Shown here: piece by piece, positions 52,293 through 63,644 of the stretch
How the letters are laid out: each line of letters starts with the position of its first letter
How positions within the stretch are numbered: the first letter of the stretch is position 1
Assembly (NCBI GenBank): GCA_964106915.2
Contig: OZ066921.1
Length of the DNA stretch: 64,000 nucleotides
Source of the DNA: Podarcis gaigeae
Lineage: Eukaryota
Strand: one strand, 5' to 3'
Made by a program: the position numbers and the translations under genes
The notes under the pieces: generated by a model
Database searches by the model: none
What the model saw: the letters and a program-made list of their open reading frames with translations, nothing else
What the model was told of the DNA's origin: nothing

Positions 52293-54974
52293 CAAGAAAT
52301 CAATCATTAACAAAGTGGCTTGTTTGTGTACTAAGAAGGATGTGAGCTGAGGCTCATTGTGCTGGATTTGTGATTCTGTCGCTTCTTCTCTTTTCTTTTT
52401 TTAAAAATATCTCTCAAAAAGCTTTGTTGGCCTCTTTCAAGACGCCTCTGGTGTGAAGCTTGACTATAACACTCCTCTGCATTAGTGCTGCCAAAGTCCC
52501 AGTTCTGGGGATGTTCTCCCACTCTGCGTAGGCTTCTAAATGTCATGGAATGTGGCTTTAAGCAAGACAGCATGTATATGCCCACGAGGAAAGTGTACAG
52601 GTGTGTTACAGCAGCGTGTGCTATGCATAAAAATCATAATCCCATACCACTAGGTAGTAGAATTGTCCTTTAATTCTGCTTTTTAAATAGCCCTGTCTCC
52701 ACAAACCATGCTTTAAAAATGCCATTTGCACAGCAATTTATGGTGTAAGCCTAACCATGTCCTCTTTGGGGGAAGTTCTATTGAATTCAGTGTGGCTAAT
52801 TCCCAGCAAAGTGGGGTCCCAATTGCAACCTAAATGTTTGAGGATCTGAGCCCTTTCCACTGTGCAAAGTTATCTCATTTGATCTGGGCATTTAGTTTTC
52901 AGACATGCCTATCATTTTTATTTCTTGCTCTGAGCTTGGGGCTAGCAAGGGAGCAGCTTTCAGTTACTTATGTCTCATCATTTTAAAGCTTTTATTATGG
53001 GTAAGGGCCTCAAGACTTGGAAGTGGCTTGGGCCTCTTTGAACATTTGAAAGGTCCTGGCTGCAGACTACCTGCATGAAACTCATTCACAGACCACAGTT
53101 TGGGAATCCCTGAGCAAGTTCATAATGGTTTAGCTCTTTAGGGACACACTTGGTTGGAATCAAAAACAAGCTCTTGTATTAGCCCATGATAGCCACTGCA
53201 CCCTAAACTGGCAAGAGTGGAGAATTCCTCCTCCAAGTCATCGAAACTCAGAGACATGCAATAGGAGCCAAACCCCAAGGATAGCAAACTTTGAAGAACC
53301 TAATCTCCTTATTCCAAAAACCAAAATCTATCTATCGTGTCACATGTGTCCAAAGTCATTGGGTTGAGAACAAAATGTAGTTAGTACAAATGAAAAAGCC
53401 TAGGAAAACCGTAAGCTCAAAGTGATGAACAAAAAACCCCCCACTTTTTGAAATGACACCAGCTAAATGGCCGCAGGACAGAGACAAACAAAGTTCTGCA
53501 AGCTGTACACCCAGAAAACAAAGGCTTCCTATTTCGGTTGCAAATAATTAGGCATAAATCTGGCTGGGTACTCCTCTTTCTTTAATCGCTAATAAAGTTT
53601 GAGCGAAGCTATTTTTTGCAGTGTTCCTTTCTGTATCACTATTGTCAGCTTCAAATCTCAAACGCAATTGGAGTTATAATTACATTTTAAAAAATAGCAT
53701 TAAAATGACATTAAGGGCTGTAATTGGAACTTCTTGTCCTTATGCACAGAACTTCTAAGATTAGCACTGGGGATCCCACATATTTCACTTGGTAGATGCC
53801 ATATTAGATAGCCAGATAACATATTCTATCTGGCTATCTAATATGTTAGAATATTTGTTTCAAGAATAGGCAACTACCTCCACTCTCTTAACTCCCCTGC
53901 TTCACCCCTTGGATCCTACGTTAAAAAATAAAAGGAGTATGCCTCTGGAATAACACTGGCTTTAGCATAAGCAATGCTAATGTTACATCAATATAAAGTA
54001 ATAACACAAAGTGTGCACTGGGTGGAATGCAGACTATGAGAAGAGACTACTAAAAAAATTTTGGATGATGGGACCATAGGCTTTACAATCCTCCTCAAGC
54101 AGACAGCTCTAAAAACTATTTTTAAAGGTCATAAATTAGGTAGTCTCTTAAATGTAATTCAATCATCTACTTTTAAAGTAGCTAGATTCTATTAGTTGTC
54201 CCTTGCATTTTACAAAAACAGAGCTCCATTAACATTATTCACTTACAGTTTCCATCTATGAGTAGATATTCTGTTCAACCAGCTTTAAATAGATTCTTTT
54301 CCCCCCTCTCTTCTTCTGAAATTGCTATTAAGCATATTTTTACTGCAAGGGCAAAGTAGGCATAGGATTATGCCTGACTCCATGCAAAGGATAGATTTTC
54401 AGCAAGCAGAACCGCATTCCTATGAAGTAAAAATACTCGATATAAGCCGATTGTTTCTATCCTTGCTCAGTAAGGACTCTCCTCTGATCTTCAGAATTAC
54501 ACGCAGGTAGCCTAGTAAGGATGAACAGGACTGCTCTGTTACTGCACAATGCAACCAGTTTTCTCTCCTTTGAGAGTTTAGATTTAAATAATTTAAAGTA
54601 CAGTATTGCTTGGGAGTTCTCAGGGTGGGGGGGTGCACATTGGCTTTGAAAAGTTATCCCATAGTCACTGGCTTCATAAAACCCCTACAAGCTGCAATAA
54701 AATGTTGCTTCACCAATAGCAATCCTCAATTGGGAACTGACATCCCTAGTAGACTGAAGATAAAAATTAAAAATTAAACACTTGTCTCTGCACAGTCAAA
54801 ATTCAATTGTTTCAATTTTGTTATCCCAAGGTTGGTACTCTGTGATAACAACCTCTGTCTAGATAAACAAAGAATTCCAACCATACATCATCTTCCTGTT
54901 TGCCTTAAGTCAATGGGTCAAACAATGTTGTTTGAAAGCAATTAGAACACACATGTTTTGTTATGTAACAGATA

Positions 54975-55400: not shown

Positions 55401-56721
55401 TCCAGTAAAGGATTGTCACAAATAAGCCTGAGCTGCATGAACAATACAAGGGGTCAAAACAGAGAATTCAACCCTCTCTCTTCTGCCATGGTCCCAACAG
55501 AATTTCCCACCCCCAGCTGTTTATATCAAGAAATAAGCCTCCTTTTGTTTAAACAGCATTGGCTGCTTTTTAACGAAACAAGTACACATTCCCTGCATCC
55601 ACACAATCCTCTGTCAAGGAATAGCCAAGGTAGCCCCCCAACCTCCAAACACCTAGGCTGCAATCAGAATATTCTGGATTAGACACCAGTCTTACTGAAG
55701 AAATTGACATGGAACAGTCCAGCCAAAGGAGTTGGCGGCAATCCAATTTGAGCTTCCAAAAGACCAACTTCCACATTATACGCTTGTACTGAGTTGGCAT
55801 GTGGTCTGGCTTCTTGGAATTGTGGGGACTGGGCAAAATGAAAACACAATTGTAATTGGCCCAGAAAGACACAAATTGTGAGCACTTGGGGTTCCAGTAC
55901 CTGATGATATGATGGCATATTTTACCACTTATTAATTTGTACCTTAATTAAATTATTATTTTATGTACATGAAACACAATCATGTTCAGCTGCTCTTAAA
56001 AAATAAATAAAAAGCCTGTTTTCTCGTGGGTGGGTTGGAAAGTTCCCCCCCTTTCCATTTTGGTTCCCATTGTTTTAATTCTATATATTGCACACATGTG
56101 TTCTCACAGCGCGGCACACTTAGTTATCGGAAACATCTGGGGTGCCCATGCTGTGGAGGAGGTCAGCTCTGCTTCTACTCTAACTGCCTGTCTTTATTAA
56201 TTTATTAAGCTCGGATTTGCTGGTGGTACAGTCTTGGAACACTGTTGGAGGGCATAGGTTAGATTCAGTAGCAATTCTCCCCAAGAGCAAGCATAAATAG
56301 GACTGTTTGAATTATAGGGAAAGCCTCTCGTTTCTTGAGGAACCACAACACAGGGAATTTTAACTGACGCAGAAATACGAGCACAAGGTTTTTGAATGGC
56401 ATGAGTCCGGGTGATTTGTAAAGCGATGTGAAGTGTCTGTGTGGAGACCCCACAAGTCTGTTACTTAGAAATAAAAATGTGATCAGATATGAACCATTAA
56501 AGATGGAACAAGCTCTGACATGGACTTATATTATTCAAACACCCTTGTACCTTTCTGTTTGAATAGAATGCTAATAGTTTATTTCGACATTGCCATCAAC
56601 AGCAGAGTACTTCAGTATTGTAAAGTTTGCACAGTCCTTTCAGTAAGTTAAGTAGATGGAGTCGGTTCAGTAGATCAAGGTACTATAGTTCCTCTTCCCT
56701 TTGCATCATTGTTGTGAAGTA

Positions 56722-56930
56722 CAGTGGTACCTCGAGTTAAGTACTTAATTCGTTACAGAGGTCCGTTCTTAACCTGAAGCACCACTTCAGCTAATGAGGC
56801 CTCCCGCTCCCGCCGCGCCGCTGGAGCACGATTTCTGTTCTTATCCTGAAGCAAAGTTCTTAACCTGAAGCACTATTTCTGGGTTAGCAGAGTCTGTAAC
56901 CTGAAGCGTATGTAACCCGAGGTACCACTG
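56722..56930. mobile_element. Tc1/mariner (Tigger-like) MITE
   Basis: TIRs cagtggtacctcgagtta / taacccgaggtaccactg; TA TSD; same family as 10432-10641. Confidence 0.92.
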
Positions 56931-58939
56931 TACTAACTATCCCCTTGCATTTAGTAAGATGTTTCAGCAGTGCTCTTTAGCTTTAGGCCCCCAGATGGCA
57001 TTGAACTACAACTCCCATCATCTCTAGGGGATGATGGAACTTTGAGTTTACTCCACTGAATATGTGAATTACTATTTAGCTTCAGCTCTTTGCAAGAGGG
57101 TTACCAGTTTCTGTGCCTTAAACACTATCTATAGTACACAATGCATTAAATCACTTAAGGGGAGTGCCCTACTTCAAGAGAAAAAAATGGGAATGTAAAG
57201 TACTGTCAATAGAATAGAACCACTGCAAATGTTGAATGCTTTGAACATGGTCTTTAAAACAAAACAAAACCTAGTTTTCAGCTTAATCCTGTTGCTTTTA
57301 AAAGGTTTGAGTTTCAAGAGCCTGCCCTGGCTACAAAGACAAAGGCAGTAATGTAAAAAGTTATGCAAAGTCCCCTCTTTTGGAAACAATTTGTCTGTAC
57401 ATAAAAAAGAGAGAGAGATGGAATTAAGCCGTAAATACTCTAGGTATAAACACAAACAGCTTTATTGCAGGTTTTTCCAGAACTCCCAAAGACTCCCAAG
57501 ACTGATTCAGGGAATAATTATGGTATGGAAACGTCATGCAATTTTTGTCACTGATCTTTTCCATGCAAAGTCAGTTTCCATGTGTATTCAATTCAAGGTT
57601 CAAAATTGAAGACTTATGTCGGGGGGAGGAAAAAAATCATAAGTGAAAAATGGAAAACATTGCCATGGGGCACAGCCCAATTCCCATATGAAACGCTGAT
57701 CAACTAATCATAAAAGCACTAAGCAAAAAGTTATTATACAATTAGTTGCTGGTAGCCTACAAAGGGGGCAATCTATTCACTCATCAATTGAGCTGGCCCA
57801 CAGGCTTCTTCATGGTCCAGAGAAGATGAATGTTATGGCCCAAATGACATATTTAACACAAATGTAGTCCAACAGTCCCTTCAGAATATATATTTGAAAG
57901 CTTCAAATGGGCACAGTTCCCCCTAAGGACACAACTTCTATGACCCCATCCTCAGATATCACCTTTCTGAGGACTCTATCCACCAAGACCATCACTATCA
58001 GATGCAGTGTAGCGAACTTAAGATTTAAAGTTATATCAAATGACGTGAACACCTCAACACACCCACACCCCATTTTTAATATGATGCCATAAAGTCTGAG
58101 TTCACATCTACTAAGGGTGTAGGATCTGACCCTCTGAGCCCTCATGTCTCCTGATTTGATTTAAAACAAACTAAAAAAACAGTAGATTGCCCATTGTGTG
58201 TTTATTGTATGCAACATCACAACTGAAATGTACTCTGCTGGTTTTGTTTCTGTTGAACTTGTTTCTGTTGTTGTAAAAGAACTATCAGACCACTATTCCA
58301 CATGTTGCTCTTGTTGTTTAATCATTAATAATTGATGCTATTAATAATGATTCAATTTACATCCACCCTTCCTCCTGGAGACCTGGTTTGCACCATGAAG
58401 TTTACAATCCGAGATTTTGTTGTTGTTGTTGTTGCTTTAAATCAACTTTGTAGTTCCAAGAGCCAAGATCCACCAAAACCTTAAACGTCAGAAGCATTAC
58501 TTTGTTCTTGCTTTGCAAAAGTAAAATTTAACTTAACCATTTTGAGTGCTTAATTTAATCTACAAAGCCATTTTCCTTTTCTGCTCCAGCGCAGAATACG
58601 TTGTGGGAAGGATGATTTGCCCTATTAATCTAAAGTTGATTTTTCTCTCCAGGATTATGGAGAATATGGACCGCTTTCCTTCTCTGTGAGACAAGTTTGA
58701 CTTTCCTTCCTTGCTTCATATGGAACACCATAGATGCAAGAAAGGTTGAAATAGACTTCTTAGTGCCATGTTTTAAAACACCCACAGCCGACATCCTCCC
58801 CACCTTGGGAACAGGTTGGAATGAAAACACATCTGTGACCCAAACTGTGTGCAAATTTTCTCCAATGTTTTATTTTGTTAGCGAGTACAATTGTGAGGGA
58901 TGACATTTGAGGTGGGATACTAGGAAGAGTATCTTTTTA

Positions 58940-60493: not shown

Positions 60494-60746
60494 AAGAAGA
60501 AGAAGAGGAAGAGTTTGGATTTGATATCCCGCCTTTCACTCCCTTTAAGGAGTCTCAAAGTGGCTAACATTCTCCTTTCCCTTCCTCCCCCACAACAAAC
60601 ACTCTGTGAGGTGAGTGGGGCTGAGAGACTTCAGAGAAGTGTGACTGGCCCAAGGTCACCCAGCAGCTGCATGTGGAGGAGCGGAGACGCGAACCCGGTT
60701 ACCCAGATTACGAACTACCGCTCTTAACCACTACACCACACTGGCT
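60494..60746 (-). mobile_element. Squam3-like SINE, full length
   Basis: Near-identical to 22691-22947 with (CTT)n tail. Confidence 0.9.
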
Positions 60747-61111
60747 GGGGCCCATCCAGACTGGTGTTTCATTTACAGTTGCATTATTTAGTCATAGTAC
60801 ATTGGTGATTAATTTATTCTGCTTTAGTCTGTTCCTCGATGGTGCCCCCAATCCTACACACTATTGGTGTTCAGAGAGGTTACAGAGGGACAAAAGTGGG
60901 GTCAAAAATAAACTAGAACATTTGTGATTAAAAAAATAATAAGAATTGGGATTTCAGTAGAAAGTTACTGGATATGCACTGATTAGAAGTAAAACAGTAT
61001 GACTATCCCAACTGTTAAAGTTACAGATAGGTAGCCGTGTTGGTCTGCCATAGTCAAAACAAAACAAAATCCTTCCAGTAGCACCTTAAAGACCAACTAA
61101 GTTAGTTCTTG

Positions 61112-61149
61112 GTATGAGCTTTCGTGTGCATGCACACTTCTTCAGATAC
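61112..61149 (-). ncRNA. Minimal type I hammerhead ribozyme motif (antisense copy)
   Basis: Minus strand GUAU-CUGAAGA-A-GUGUGCAUGCACAC-GAAAGCUC-AUAC with 4-bp helix I. Confidence 0.75.
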
Positions 61150-61159
61150 ACAGAATGTT

Positions 61160-61196
61160 TATCTGAAGAAGTGTGCATGCACACGAAAGCTCATAC
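61160..61196 (+). ncRNA. Minimal type I hammerhead ribozyme motif
   Basis: UAU-CUGAAGA-A-[GUGUGC AU GCACAC]-GAAA-GC-UC-AUA: core boxes, helix II, palindromic AGCU helix III, short helix I. Confidence 0.75.
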
Positions 61197-61489
61197 CAAG
61201 AACTAACTTAGTTGGTCTTTAAGGTGCTACTGGAAGGAATTTTTTTTGTTCCAACTGTTAAAGGGCACAAACAGCAATGGAAGTGGGATTGTGTGTAACC
61301 ACCCCAAGAGCAACATAAGAACAATCTTCAACCATGATAGTTGAATGAGCACAAATTAACAATAGAAGGGATATCTGGAGGAGCCCTAGATACACAAACA
61401 AGTATTAAGGGGATTCAAGTGGGCCCATGAAACAAAACGCGTGAAGTGTGTGAAGTGCTTCTGATCAGGATAGCATTCCACTCCAGGAA

Positions 61490-61645: not shown

Positions 61646-63644
61646 GCCCACCCTTAATGGATGGCTGGGTTGGGTGGTTGGCATATGAATTGTTGATTTG
61701 TCCATTGACATCTGTGAGTGGTTCTCACTTCTGTTCCTGGGGACATCTAAAAATAGTATAAACCAGGAGATGTCCTAGCGAGACTATGAGATAGTACCAG
61801 CTACTCTTTTAACATCTATTTGGATCTCTTCCTGCATCCTTCTTTTCCAGCTACACTGTTCCATCCCCCCCTCCTTAAGCCAGTTTCCAGCTTTTCCTTT
61901 CAGCTATCAGTCCGCATTCCACTCCTAAGTCTGTTGGTGCCTCGCCACTTGTGCATGACTCTTACAATTTTGGCTACGAAAGCAAAATGGCACTCAATGA
62001 AGGGACTCGGAATATAGGCTTGGTGTTACTCCAGTAATTCTTTGTGACACTCATTCTCAGTGGATTGCCTGCATGCCATACAAGCTGTACCAATCCTCAA
62101 ATTACTTCCCACTGTCATTTCCTAACAACAATCTCTGTTGCAAGAGTGCCCTACTCTTGCCTATCCTGTTTATTCATGTCCCCTGTAGCATGAAGTTATG
62201 ACTGGAAATAATAGTAGAGATTCTGCTTACTGGCAAAGAGCTCCACTCAGAACATGAAAGACACCTGAATCTTAGATAAAGCATTTACACTTGAATCTGC
62301 TGCACTTGTTCAGGAATGGGAAACCTCTGGTCCATGGTCAATCTTGACCCATTAGGGGGTTCAATTTGGCCTGGACAGCTAGGCAGAGCTGCCCACCTCC
62401 ATCATCATGATGTCAGATGATTGACAGGTGGGTGACCCCACTCACCCACTCATAGGGTGGATGAAATGTTTCCCCCGAGTTTGAGGAACAGACCTTTCCA
62501 CCCTCCTCTCTCTGTGCATTCCCTGCATCATCTTCAAATCTACTCCAGAGAGTTGGGGGACCTCCCACAACAGATTTAGAGGGCATGGAGGGAGAGAGGG
62601 AGCAAATTGCATTGCACAGTCAAAAGTCCTTGCACTGATGGAACAACATAACTGGATATTCCTCATAGTACATTGAACATTCTTCTTTTTTCTACTTATA
62701 TTCCTTATGCACAGTTGGGGGGCAGGGGACAGCCACTAGAAACGTGGAGGTAGTCATATGGTTGCTGTCGTACTTATATACTTGCAGTAACCAATTTTGC
62801 ACTATTCATATACAGTGCACAAGCATAGGGTAAAAAGGAAATATATTGTTGAGACTGAAACACGATCTGCTAATCCTGCCTTGGAAAGTAAGGGTTTATG
62901 GCTGGCTTGCTCAAGAATCTAAGTAACAACAGAGATGAGTAGCACACATATGAGGAAAGATTGCCAGGGCAGACACATAAAGTCAGCTGCCATAGACATG
63001 AAAGAAAAGGAACTTTTTAACATTTAATGTTGAATCCTCCACTCGTAACACACCATTTTCCATTACAACAACTGGTGACATGCCAAAAGAAGGGTGGAGT
63101 GGTCCAAGGCTAAACTTGAGTTGCTAGGATTCATCTGCTTTCATCTGCAAAACCACAGATCTGGGATGTGTGAAGAGAATTGAGTTTCTGAGGATGCACA
63201 GAGTGCCTTTCCTTCAGTAGTGAAGAAGTACAGCCTGCTTAAACATCCCTAAGACTACAGGGCAGGGCTTTCATGTTACATGTTACAGGTTTCAGGTTTC
63301 AGGTTACAGGATGTGGTTTCCATCAGATTGCAATTCTAACTTACTTGGGACATGCTTTAAAAAATAAGTGCTGGGGGGAAATCCTAAAATCTAAGTGTAT
63401 AAAATTTCCCCTGCTCTAAACAGGCATCAGGACTGAAAGCCAAGATCAAACCAATCCTGCTGTCATACAATTTACAACATATCCAAAACATGTCCAAAAT
63501 ATTCCTGATGTGCAAAAGTCAAAGATGTTTAATTAAAATTGACCAGAATCCATCTTCTGTCCCCGTGCTTTGAAAAAGAAAAAAAGAAGTCAATTCTTCA
63601 GCTAAATTTAAAGATTAAATATGATTAAAATTTCTGTAGAATGT

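What the first reader, a model, noticed from the sequence alone, without database searches (positions are those of the whole stretch)
61008..61263. TSD-flanked Penelope-derived mini-element: two inverted hammerhead ribozymes in a perfect 79-bp hairpin
Seen: perfect 79-bp inverted repeat (61070-61148/61160-61238, 11-nt spacer) and a 13-bp flanking direct repeat ccaactgttaaag. Each strand carries a CUGAAGA(A)-helix II-GAAAGCUC motif, and no RT or GIY-YIG coding sequence lies between the arms. Known: Penelope-like retroelements carry minimal type I hammerheads in their pseudo-LTRs, with a palindromic helix III suited to dimeric cleavage, and often insert with inverted pLTRs. Inference: this is a very recent, almost completely truncated insertion, or a non-autonomous ribozyme-bearing unit. 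A transcript from either strand would hold one ribozyme (predicted cut after C61192 on +) and its exact antisense. That would set self-cleavage against a long dsRNA hairpin (Dicer/ADAR substrate).
Basis: partly seen in the sequence, partly recalled or inferred. Interest (0 to 1): 0.75.

Follow-up and report, generated by a model that had tools for sequence, protein, structure and literature searches.

The report
Inverted Penelope fragment carrying hammerhead motifs
This is a 230-base leftover of a known jumping gene (a Penelope-like retrotransposon) that inserted as two short back-to-back copies of its end; the layout is already described, and its self-cutting RNA motifs are almost certainly silenced by the hairpin they form.

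Summary
In detail: exact 79-bp inverted repeat, exact 13-bp target-site duplication, and one minimal type I hammerhead motif per strand. The unit is a coding-less Penelope-like element (PLE) insertion: two short pLTR pieces head to head, the left with a 37-bp one-sided 'tail'. Inverted pLTR, 30-40-bp tail, TSD and opposite-strand minimal hammerheads are all published PLE traits. The motif matches the published turtle PLE hammerhead, with compensatory changes. Six spurious peptides from other copies were found; the one spanning an inverted junction has a junction 78 nt longer, which favours independent insertions over a fixed non-autonomous family. The proposed contest between ribozyme and hairpin is one-sided: the antisense arm is transcribed first and the ribozyme fold costs over 60 kcal/mol. 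One new lead: both arms stop within 3 nt of an inferred initiator, about 30 nt downstream of a TATA-compatible stretch. The insert may therefore be two complete run-off cDNAs (tail to transcription start), primed from both target strands or made by snap-back, and not a random truncation. No transcription, cleavage or eukaryotic DNA database was available. Ordinary element, modest mechanistic value.

The parts
61008..61020 (.). Left target-site duplication (13 bp)
   Evidence: Exact direct repeat; chance 5 of 20000
61021..61057 (-). One-sided 37-bp PLE 'tail' (3' end of the left arm in PLE sense; 57% A+C)
   Evidence: No partner on the right; fits the 30-40-bp tail described in PMC8557442, PMC3846280 and PMC11167929. 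Inner boundary soft: in P0003 the tail-less arm appears to run about 8 nt further
61021..61155 (-). Left arm: short pLTR piece plus tail, PLE sense on the minus strand
   Evidence: peptide matches to other copies; 5' limit at 61151-61155 inferred
61112..61149 (-). Minimal type I hammerhead motif, 4-bp helix I, C3 at 61145, predicted cut between 61116 and 61115
   Evidence: compared by eye with the turtle row of Fig. S3 of PMC4209133
61153..61155 (.). GAA loop at the head-to-head junction, closed by ACA/TGT
   Evidence: Folds
61156..61250 (+). Right arm: short pLTR piece without tail, ending in the T-tract, PLE sense on the plus strand
61160..61195 (+). Minimal type I hammerhead motif, helix I reduced to 3 bp by the mismatch at 61159, C3 at 61163, predicted cut after 61192
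61251..61263 (.). Right target-site duplication (13 bp)

Best explanation
A dead-on-arrival insertion made by the RT and GIY-YIG endonuclease of an autonomous Penelope-like element elsewhere in a reptile genome. The endonuclease nicked both target strands 13 nt apart, giving the TSD (shown by sequence). The top-strand end was extended with cDNA starting at the far end of the tail (61021). A second, tail-less cDNA of the same pLTR stretch was attached at the bottom-strand end (61250). The two pieces meet head to head at 61155/61156 (layout shown; priming order inferred from the Anolis PAc in vitro work). Both pieces stop a few bases upstream of the hammerhead, at what is inferred to be the pLTR transcription start, so they are probably run-off copies of the 5' 95-135 nt of the PLE RNA. 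The hammerheads are passengers of the pLTR. The insert lacks the upstream promoter stretch, and if read through by a host transcript it would form a 95-bp dsRNA stem that sequesters the single sense motif, so it should not self-cleave (computed, not assayed).
For: Layout equals the published PLE pattern of inverted pLTR, one-sided 30-40-bp tail and TSD (PMC8557442; PMC3846280, TSDs of 8-10 bp there). Opposite-strand minimal hammerheads 100-700 bp apart are reported as truncated PLEs (PMC4209133). The motif meets the min-HHR consensus and resembles the Chrysemys row with compensatory pairs in helix I (GCAU/AUGC vs GUAU/AUAC) and helix II (GUGGG/CCCAC vs GUGUG/CACAC). PAc nicks and extends both strands and starts RT at two sites that bound the tail (PMC11167929). 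Six peptides from other copies: P0003 reads antisense arm, then sense arm, with 28 residues between RYTE and SEE against 2 here; P0004, P0005, P0006 and P0008 show the pLTR continuing upstream; P0007 is a sense arm starting just before the motif. Back-translation gives TTCAGT 7 nt upstream of C3 and a TA-rich stretch at -30 to -22. Hairpin z-score -25 and -26; ribozyme fold +64.2 and +60.8 kcal/mol.
Against: No direct DNA match to a named PLE: no eukaryotic DNA collection, Dfam or Repbase was available; 0 hits in prokaryotic genomes, plasmids and phages, as expected. Rfam gives no hammerhead hit. The related copies are known only as unnamed spurious translations, 6 in all, and only 1 spans an inverted junction. 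They are biased towards stop-free frames, which confines visible 5' ends to about 30 nt, so clustering at the start site is weakly tested. TATA and initiator are inferred from degenerate back-translation. PAc is a Poseidon-clade element with a different hammerhead, so its mechanism is extrapolated. The nick sites here are not the ATT motif PAc prefers. Both arms share two variants absent from comparators (TAA where P0003 and P0007 read Lys, 2 of 2; T at the inferred +1 where P0003 implies A, 1 of 1), which fits snap-back equally well.
Confidence: 0.75

Rival explanations
1. Same PLE origin, but a single priming event: the first cDNA reached the RNA 5' end, snapped back around the GAA loop and copied itself, then slipped off in the A-tract and joined the second nick (the self-priming idea proposed for rotifer PLEs). 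This is an alternative for the second-arm step only.
For: The junction is a 3-nt loop closed by ACA/TGT, with no filler needed. Both arms share two variants not seen in comparators. The 3 mismatches sit at the ends of the stem (p = 0.016 under uniform placement). PMC3846280 reads junction palindromes as self-priming.
Against: The second arm stops near the tail boundary, as a second RT start site predicts and a random fall-off does not. P0003 has an inverted junction whose arms differ by about 75 nt in upstream reach, which simple snap-back does not give. Shared variants are also expected if both cDNAs came from one source locus.
Confidence: 0.35
2. A self-propagating non-autonomous unit (retrozyme-like or MITE-like) that is copied as this exact 230-bp hairpin.
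For: Clean TSD and intact motifs. pLTRs alone can mobilise sequence in trans (PMC3846280), and animal retrozymes derive from pLTRs (bioRxiv 10.64898/2026.07.22.740005).
Against: 0 further copies in the 64-kb window. 0 of 6 related peptides show this junction, and the 1 that spans an inverted junction differs. Retrozymes are head-to-tail tandems. The inferred promoter stretch is missing and the RNA would be locked in a hairpin.
Confidence: 0.06
3. A functional RNA switch or co-opted hairpin: read-through RNA partitions between self-cleavage and a Dicer/ADAR substrate.
For: A 95-bp stem would be a good dsRNA substrate if transcribed. RNAs starting in the spacer could form helix II (probability 0.85 on +, about 0.3 on -).
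Against: No partition is predicted: helix II probability is 1e-13 as soon as it is transcribed and 3e-19 afterwards. Even without the antisense arm, helix I forms at 3e-5 (+) and 5e-3 (-). Single min-HHRs did not cleave in vitro and the PAc motif needed protein. No host gene was found: 0 of 213 open frames of 68 aa or more reached a Pfam cut-off, though short exons would be missed. No conservation evidence.
Confidence: 0.05
4. Assembly or library fold-back artefact in a gapped draft scaffold.
For: The window holds 6 N-runs; perfect inverted repeats are a known chimera product (general knowledge).
Against: Exact 13-bp TSD, one-sided tail, 3 arm mismatches and an independent inverted copy (P0003) are not what a fold-back chimera produces.
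Confidence: 0.03

Closest known systems
Endonuclease-containing Penelope-like element insertions with inverted pLTR and tail (PMC8557442 Fig. 2 legend; Adineta Pen2a/Pen2 in PMC3846280; D. virilis Penelope in PMC2377424)
   Same: Head-to-head inverted pLTR pieces, a 30-40-bp tail on one end only, TSD, palindromic junction, 5' truncation
   Different: Here no ORF sequence at all and both arms are under 140 nt; TSD 13 bp against 8-10 bp in the rotifer examples; clade not determined (Neptune is my recall, untested)
Minimal type I hammerheads of metazoan PLEs, Chrysemys picta family (PMC4209133 Fig. S3)
   Same: CUGAAGA core, extra base before helix II, G-C first pair, 5-bp helix II, GAAA-GC-U-H without loop 3, 4-bp helix I; compensatory changes in both helices
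   Different: Loop II is CAUG, making helix II plus loop a perfect 14-nt palindrome; cleavage base C, not U; the + strand copy has only 3 bp of helix I
PAc, Poseidon element of Anolis carolinensis (PMC11167929)
   Same: pLTR hammerhead followed by an AC-rich tail; both-strand nicking and two RT start sites would produce this layout
   Different: Sequence not compared (the .gbk supplement was unreadable); PAc prefers ATT at the nick and its ORF starts in helix II, while the equivalent AUG here is followed by a stop after 8 codons
Non-LTR retrozymes (PMC7229834; bioRxiv 10.64898/2026.07.22.740005)
   Same: Non-coding, pLTR-related, type I hammerhead
   Different: Retrozymes are head-to-tail tandems with two or more same-strand ribozymes; this unit is head-to-head with one motif per strand

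Membership tests
Autonomous EN+ Penelope-like element | ORF encoding telomerase-like RT and GIY-YIG endonuclease | tested here: not met
   Six frames of 61021-61250 have no stop-free run of 40 aa; no RT or GIY-YIG hit among 213 window ORFs
Truncated EN+ PLE insertion | pLTR carrying a minimal hammerhead | tested here: met
   against the consensus; upstream pLTR seen in P0004, P0005, P0006, P0008
Truncated EN+ PLE insertion | Inverted, head-to-head 5'-truncated copy | tested here: met
   same layout in P0003
Truncated EN+ PLE insertion | 30-40-bp tail at one end only | tested here: met
   37 bp, 61021-61057; boundary may lie about 8 nt further out, judged from P0003
Truncated EN+ PLE insertion | Target-site duplication | tested here: met
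   13 of 13; empty allele not available
Truncated EN+ PLE insertion | DNA homology to a named PLE consensus or contiguity with an RT-EN ORF (clade assignment) | not testable with these tools
Minimal type I hammerhead (min-HHR) | Core CUGANGA and GAAA-N-N'-UH, extra base between 9 and 10.1, G10.1-C11.1, palindromic 15.2-16.2 | tested here: met
   0 hits in 150 simulated windows
Minimal type I hammerhead (min-HHR) | Helix I closing across the cleavage site | tested here: met
   4 bp on the - strand, 3 bp on the + strand; published rows range from 2 to 6 bp
Minimal type I hammerhead (min-HHR) | Self-cleavage as a dimer or with protein | not testable with these tools
   Needs a bench assay; folding predicts sequestration in this locus
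Rfam hammerhead families | Covariance-model match | tested here: not met
   No hammerhead hit at gathering or E up to 10
Non-LTR retrozyme | Head-to-tail tandem units, each with a same-strand hammerhead | tested here: not met
   One motif per strand; no tandem array at the site
Non-autonomous family with fixed structure | Same internal junction at several loci with different TSDs | tested here: inconclusive
   0 in the window; 1 of 1 other inverted junction differs; sampling is small and frame-biased
MITE (DNA transposon derivative) | Inverted repeats reaching both termini | tested here: not met
   The left terminus has 37 unpaired bases

The most novel reading that the evidence does not exclude
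The insert is the minimal product of PLE retrotransposition: two complete run-off cDNAs, each from one of the two tail-bounding RT start sites to the RNA 5' end (a TATA/initiator start 7 nt upstream of the hammerhead core), primed from the two target nicks and joined end to end. If general, the short inverted pLTRs of PLEs are start-site run-off products and not random truncations, and thousands of genomic junctions in reptiles could decide between twin priming and snap-back self-priming, an open question of the PLE cycle.
Probability: 0.35. Interest if true: 0.55.

Novelty: new member of a known kind. Interest (0 to 1): 0.27.

Why it matters
As a locus it matters little: PLE fragments with minimal hammerheads occur in thousands of copies in many animal genomes (PMC4209133). 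Its value is as a clean mechanistic fossil. How PLEs make inverted pLTRs and one-sided tails is still described as unresolved (PMC3846280, PMC8557442, PMC11167929), and a young, ORF-free, TSD-bounded case shows all junctions at once and gives a countable genome-wide test. If it lies in a transcribed region it would also be an instant 95-bp dsRNA source that could feed silencing of its own family; that is untested.

Tried and rejected
Rfam: 0 hits at gathering in the window. At E up to 10, 27 matches in 60900-61400, of which 25 are miRNA models, 1 bicoid 3' UTR and 1 Xist, all below gathering and explained by a long hairpin or chance; each arm alone gave 1 chance hit and 0 hits. A miRNA gene is rejected. 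DNA relatives: none elsewhere in the window, in plasmids or phages or in prokaryotic genomes (2 scans); the metagenome and viral contig collections stayed unchecked. P0002, 1 of 2 phmmer hits, is an unrelated tandem-repeat peptide and was dropped. Longer proteins: 0 of 4 candidates scored. The source organism of P0003-P0008 is unknown: P0003 has no name and the look-up for the other five could not be made. Host gene: 0 of 213 ORFs above a Pfam cut-off, 2 weak sub-cut-off hits; the 276-codon ORF at 6107-6934 gave no Atlas hit. The sigma-70 promoter scan is irrelevant to this genome and at chance level. Co-folding two isolated motifs gave an extended helix II duplex and not the helix III dimer, so the dimer model is not supported by folding energy alone. 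Literature: exact motifs in 0 papers; 'Penelope' with 'twin priming' in 3 papers, none on PLE insertions by title or abstract; SINE identity could not be confirmed from papers. PMC5785218 (dimer cleavage) is not held; only its title was seen.

Full report
Observation. The coordinates are right. 61070-61148 and 61160-61238 are exact reverse complements (79 of 79) around CACAGAATGTT, and CCAACTGTTAAAG flanks the unit exactly at 61008-61020 and 61251-61263. The next-best perfect inverted repeat within 1 kb spacing in the window is 25 bp, and such a TSD arose in 5 of 20000 random placements. The stem extends to a 95-bp quasi-palindrome (61058-61152 / 61156-61250) with 3 mismatches and a GAA loop. 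The mismatches lie at the two ends of the stem, which has p = 0.016 under uniform placement. The first 37 bases (61021-61057) have no partner. The whole folds at -173 and -172 kcal/mol, z about -25.

Host. The window is a CpG-depleted (observed/expected 0.05-0.39), gapped (6 N-runs) vertebrate-like scaffold. From memory its interspersed repeats look like lacertid lizard SINEs; no call confirmed this. PLEs and their hammerheads are reported in reptiles, while min-HHR families were not found in mammals (PMC4209133) and PLEs not in birds or mammals (bioRxiv 10.64898/2026.07.22.740005). No host gene was identified: 0 of 213 stop-free frames of 68 aa or more reached a Pfam cut-off. Shorter exons would be missed, so an intronic position is not excluded.

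The ribozyme motif. Each arm reads helix I 5' strand, CUGAAGA, an extra A, helix II GUGUG/CACAC around CAUG, GAAA, GC, UC, helix I 3' strand. This meets the min-HHR traits listed in PMC4209133: extra base after position 9, G10.1-C11.1, palindromic 15.2-16.2. The full descriptor hits 2 times in the window and 0 times in 150 simulated windows; the core boxes alone are at chance level. Among the 56 rows of Fig. S3, compared by eye, the Chrysemys picta row is the closest: GCAU/AUGC against GUAU/AUAC in helix I and GUGGG/CCCAC against GUGUG/CACAC in helix II, both compensatory. Rfam does not recognise the motif; I take this as a limit of the models for minimal variants, which is my inference. The - strand copy has 4 bp of helix I, the + strand copy 3 bp.

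The layout is published. PMC8557442 describes an inverted 5'-truncated copy next to the 5' end and a 30-40-bp tail often at one end only. PMC3846280 describes rotifer copies with inverted pLTRs, a 31-bp optional tail, 8-10-bp TSDs and junction palindromes, head-to-head being the usual arrangement. PMC4209133 reports dual min-HHRs 100-700 bp apart on opposite strands, linked to truncated PLEs. This locus is that pattern with no ORF sequence left.

Other copies. No eukaryotic DNA collection was available, and prokaryotic, plasmid and phage searches were empty. I therefore searched proteins with the 38-residue stop-free frame across the junction. phmmer returned 2 hits: P0002 is unrelated, P0003 is a spurious translation of the same repeat from an unnamed 511-nt contig. 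Searching with P0003 residues 1-80 gave 5 of 5 near-length candidates including itself, 1 of 2 shorter and 0 of 4 longer: six family peptides in all. P0003 reads antisense arm, then sense arm, like this locus, but has 28 residues between RYTE and SEE where this locus has 2, so its junction is 78 nt longer; its right arm also appears to end about 8 nt further on. P0004, P0005, P0006 and P0008 show the antisense pLTR continuing upstream, and P0007 is a sense arm beginning just before the motif. P0006 runs from the pLTR into the SINE-like family present at 22691-22944 and 60494-60746 of this window, which ties it to the same lineage. So the family is dispersed and head-to-head insertion recurs with different junctions (1 of 1). 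This sample is small and biased to stop-free frames.

Where the arms stop. Combining P0003's two frames fixes the sense sequence upstream of the core as TTCAGT-GTAT-C3, assuming its arms are complementary. Five antisense peptides put a TA-rich stretch (DATRTANAR in 2 of 5, one-codon variants in 3 of 5) at -30 to -22 from that A. This spacing is that of a TATA box and initiator (general knowledge; a TATA/Inr pair in a pLTR is noted in PMC3846280, whereas D. virilis Penelope has a TATA-less internal promoter). On that scale the left arm here ends at -3 (61155) if 61152 is a substitution, or at +2 if not; the right arm starts at +1 (61156) with one mismatch at 61159; P0003's right arm starts near -3 and P0007 near +4. 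The two arms thus abut without filler and both end at the inferred start site. This is inference from degenerate back-translation, not a mapped start.

Mechanism. In vitro, the Anolis PAc protein nicks and extends both target strands and starts reverse transcription at two internal sites that bound the tail (PMC11167929). The polarity here fits: the top strand continues from the TSD into antisense of the tail end, and the bottom strand continues from the TSD into antisense of the tail-less end. My preferred reading is twin priming with run-off at the RNA 5' end and end-to-end joining. Snap-back of one cDNA around the GAA loop is a close rival, because both arms share two variants absent from comparators. 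Shown: layout, TSD, tail, motif, recurrence with another junction. Inferred: priming order, start site, clade. Age: young, with 0 differences in the TSD pair and a 79-bp perfect core, against 93.7% identity between the two SINE-like copies nearby. But 0 of 92 only bounds divergence below about 3%, and hairpin arms can be homogenised.

Function. In 430-nt read-through RNAs from either strand, helix II pairs have probability near 3e-19, and forcing the ribozyme fold costs +64.2 (+) and +60.8 (-) kcal/mol. The antisense arm always precedes the motif, and helix II is already at 1e-13 when just transcribed (equilibrium model on growing prefixes). Without the antisense arm helix I still forms at only 3e-5 or 5e-3. 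Single min-HHRs showed no cleavage and dimers low cleavage; the PAc motif needed protein and was dispensable for insertion in vitro; 1 of 9 Xenopus retrozyme dimers cleaved. The motifs are best seen as inert passengers here. A dsRNA role needs transcription, for which there is no evidence either way.

Papers seen. PMC4209133: parts 1-2 of 4 of the text and parts 1-2 of 3 of the supplement. PMC11167929: parts 1-2 of 4, two figure supplements with little text; the .gbk with the PAc sequence was unreadable and the spreadsheet was not opened, so no sequence comparison with PAc was made. bioRxiv 10.64898/2026.07.22.740005: parts 1-3 of 5; its supplements, which may list reptile families, are closed. 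Passages only: PMC8557442, PMC3846280, PMC8969392, PMC6765202, PMC2377424, PMC7229834, PMC10058329. PMC10702118: supplements searched, no hit. I found no paper on this exact family or on start-site run-off of inverted pLTRs in searches, but most subscription papers, Repbase and Dfam are outside the library, and the family is very likely catalogued there.

Verdict. A real, clean, young, ORF-free PLE insertion of a known architecture. New member of a known kind; interest 0.27. The run-off reading (probability 0.35) would deserve about 0.55 if a genome-wide count confirms it.

Noticed in passing
window 61000-61006 and 61050-61056: The left flank holds TGACTAT one base before the TSD; the same 7-mer lies in the element's sense strand near the tail boundary, where P0003's right arm appears to end. 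The 7-mer occurs 15 times in the window on both strands, so this may be chance or a hint of target preference for tail-like sequence.
   Followed up: partly
window 61171-61184 and 61124-61137: Helix II plus loop (GUGUGCAUGCACAC) is a perfect 14-nt palindrome; two molecules are predicted to pair through it instead of through helix III. It could aid or block dimer activity.
   Followed up: partly
window 61087-61105, minus strand: A CUAAC followed 14 nt later by UUUAAG|G downstream of the hammerhead resembles a branch point and 3' splice site; PLEs can carry pLTR introns. Seen by eye, not tested.
   Followed up: no
window 61023-61051, minus strand: An AUG at the tail boundary opens 10 codons to the end of the tail; in rotifer PLEs the pLTR plus tail carries the first codons of the ORF, so this could be the parent's ORF start.
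   Followed up: no
window 22691-22944 and 60494-60746: Two copies of a SINE-like repeat, 93.7% identical; the second ends about 260 bp before the insertion. P0006 joins this family to the PLE pLTR.
   Followed up: partly
window about 45990-46330; 44838-44957; 15545-15662: Repeats that I recall as Sauria/Squam1 SINE copies; identity not confirmed by any search.
   Followed up: partly
window about 45850-46420: A broken reading frame on both sides of the SINE resembles a hAT-type transposase remnant (recall only; no Pfam hit).
   Followed up: no
window 56718-56934, 10430-10645, 41756-42086: MITE-like elements with 17-bp and 15-bp perfect terminal inverted repeats; the first two are 87.6% identical.
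   Followed up: no
window 6107-6934, plus strand: A 276-codon open frame in a GC-richer patch with no Pfam or Atlas match; possibly a coding exon or pseudogene.
   Followed up: partly
window 63269-63310: A short tandem array of GTTACAG, the same 7-mer as the TSD-tail junction at 61020-61026; probably unrelated.
   Followed up: no
window 23690-23714 / 23755-23779 and 53800-53818 / 53827-53845: Perfect inverted repeats of 25 and 19 bp, not examined.
   Followed up: no
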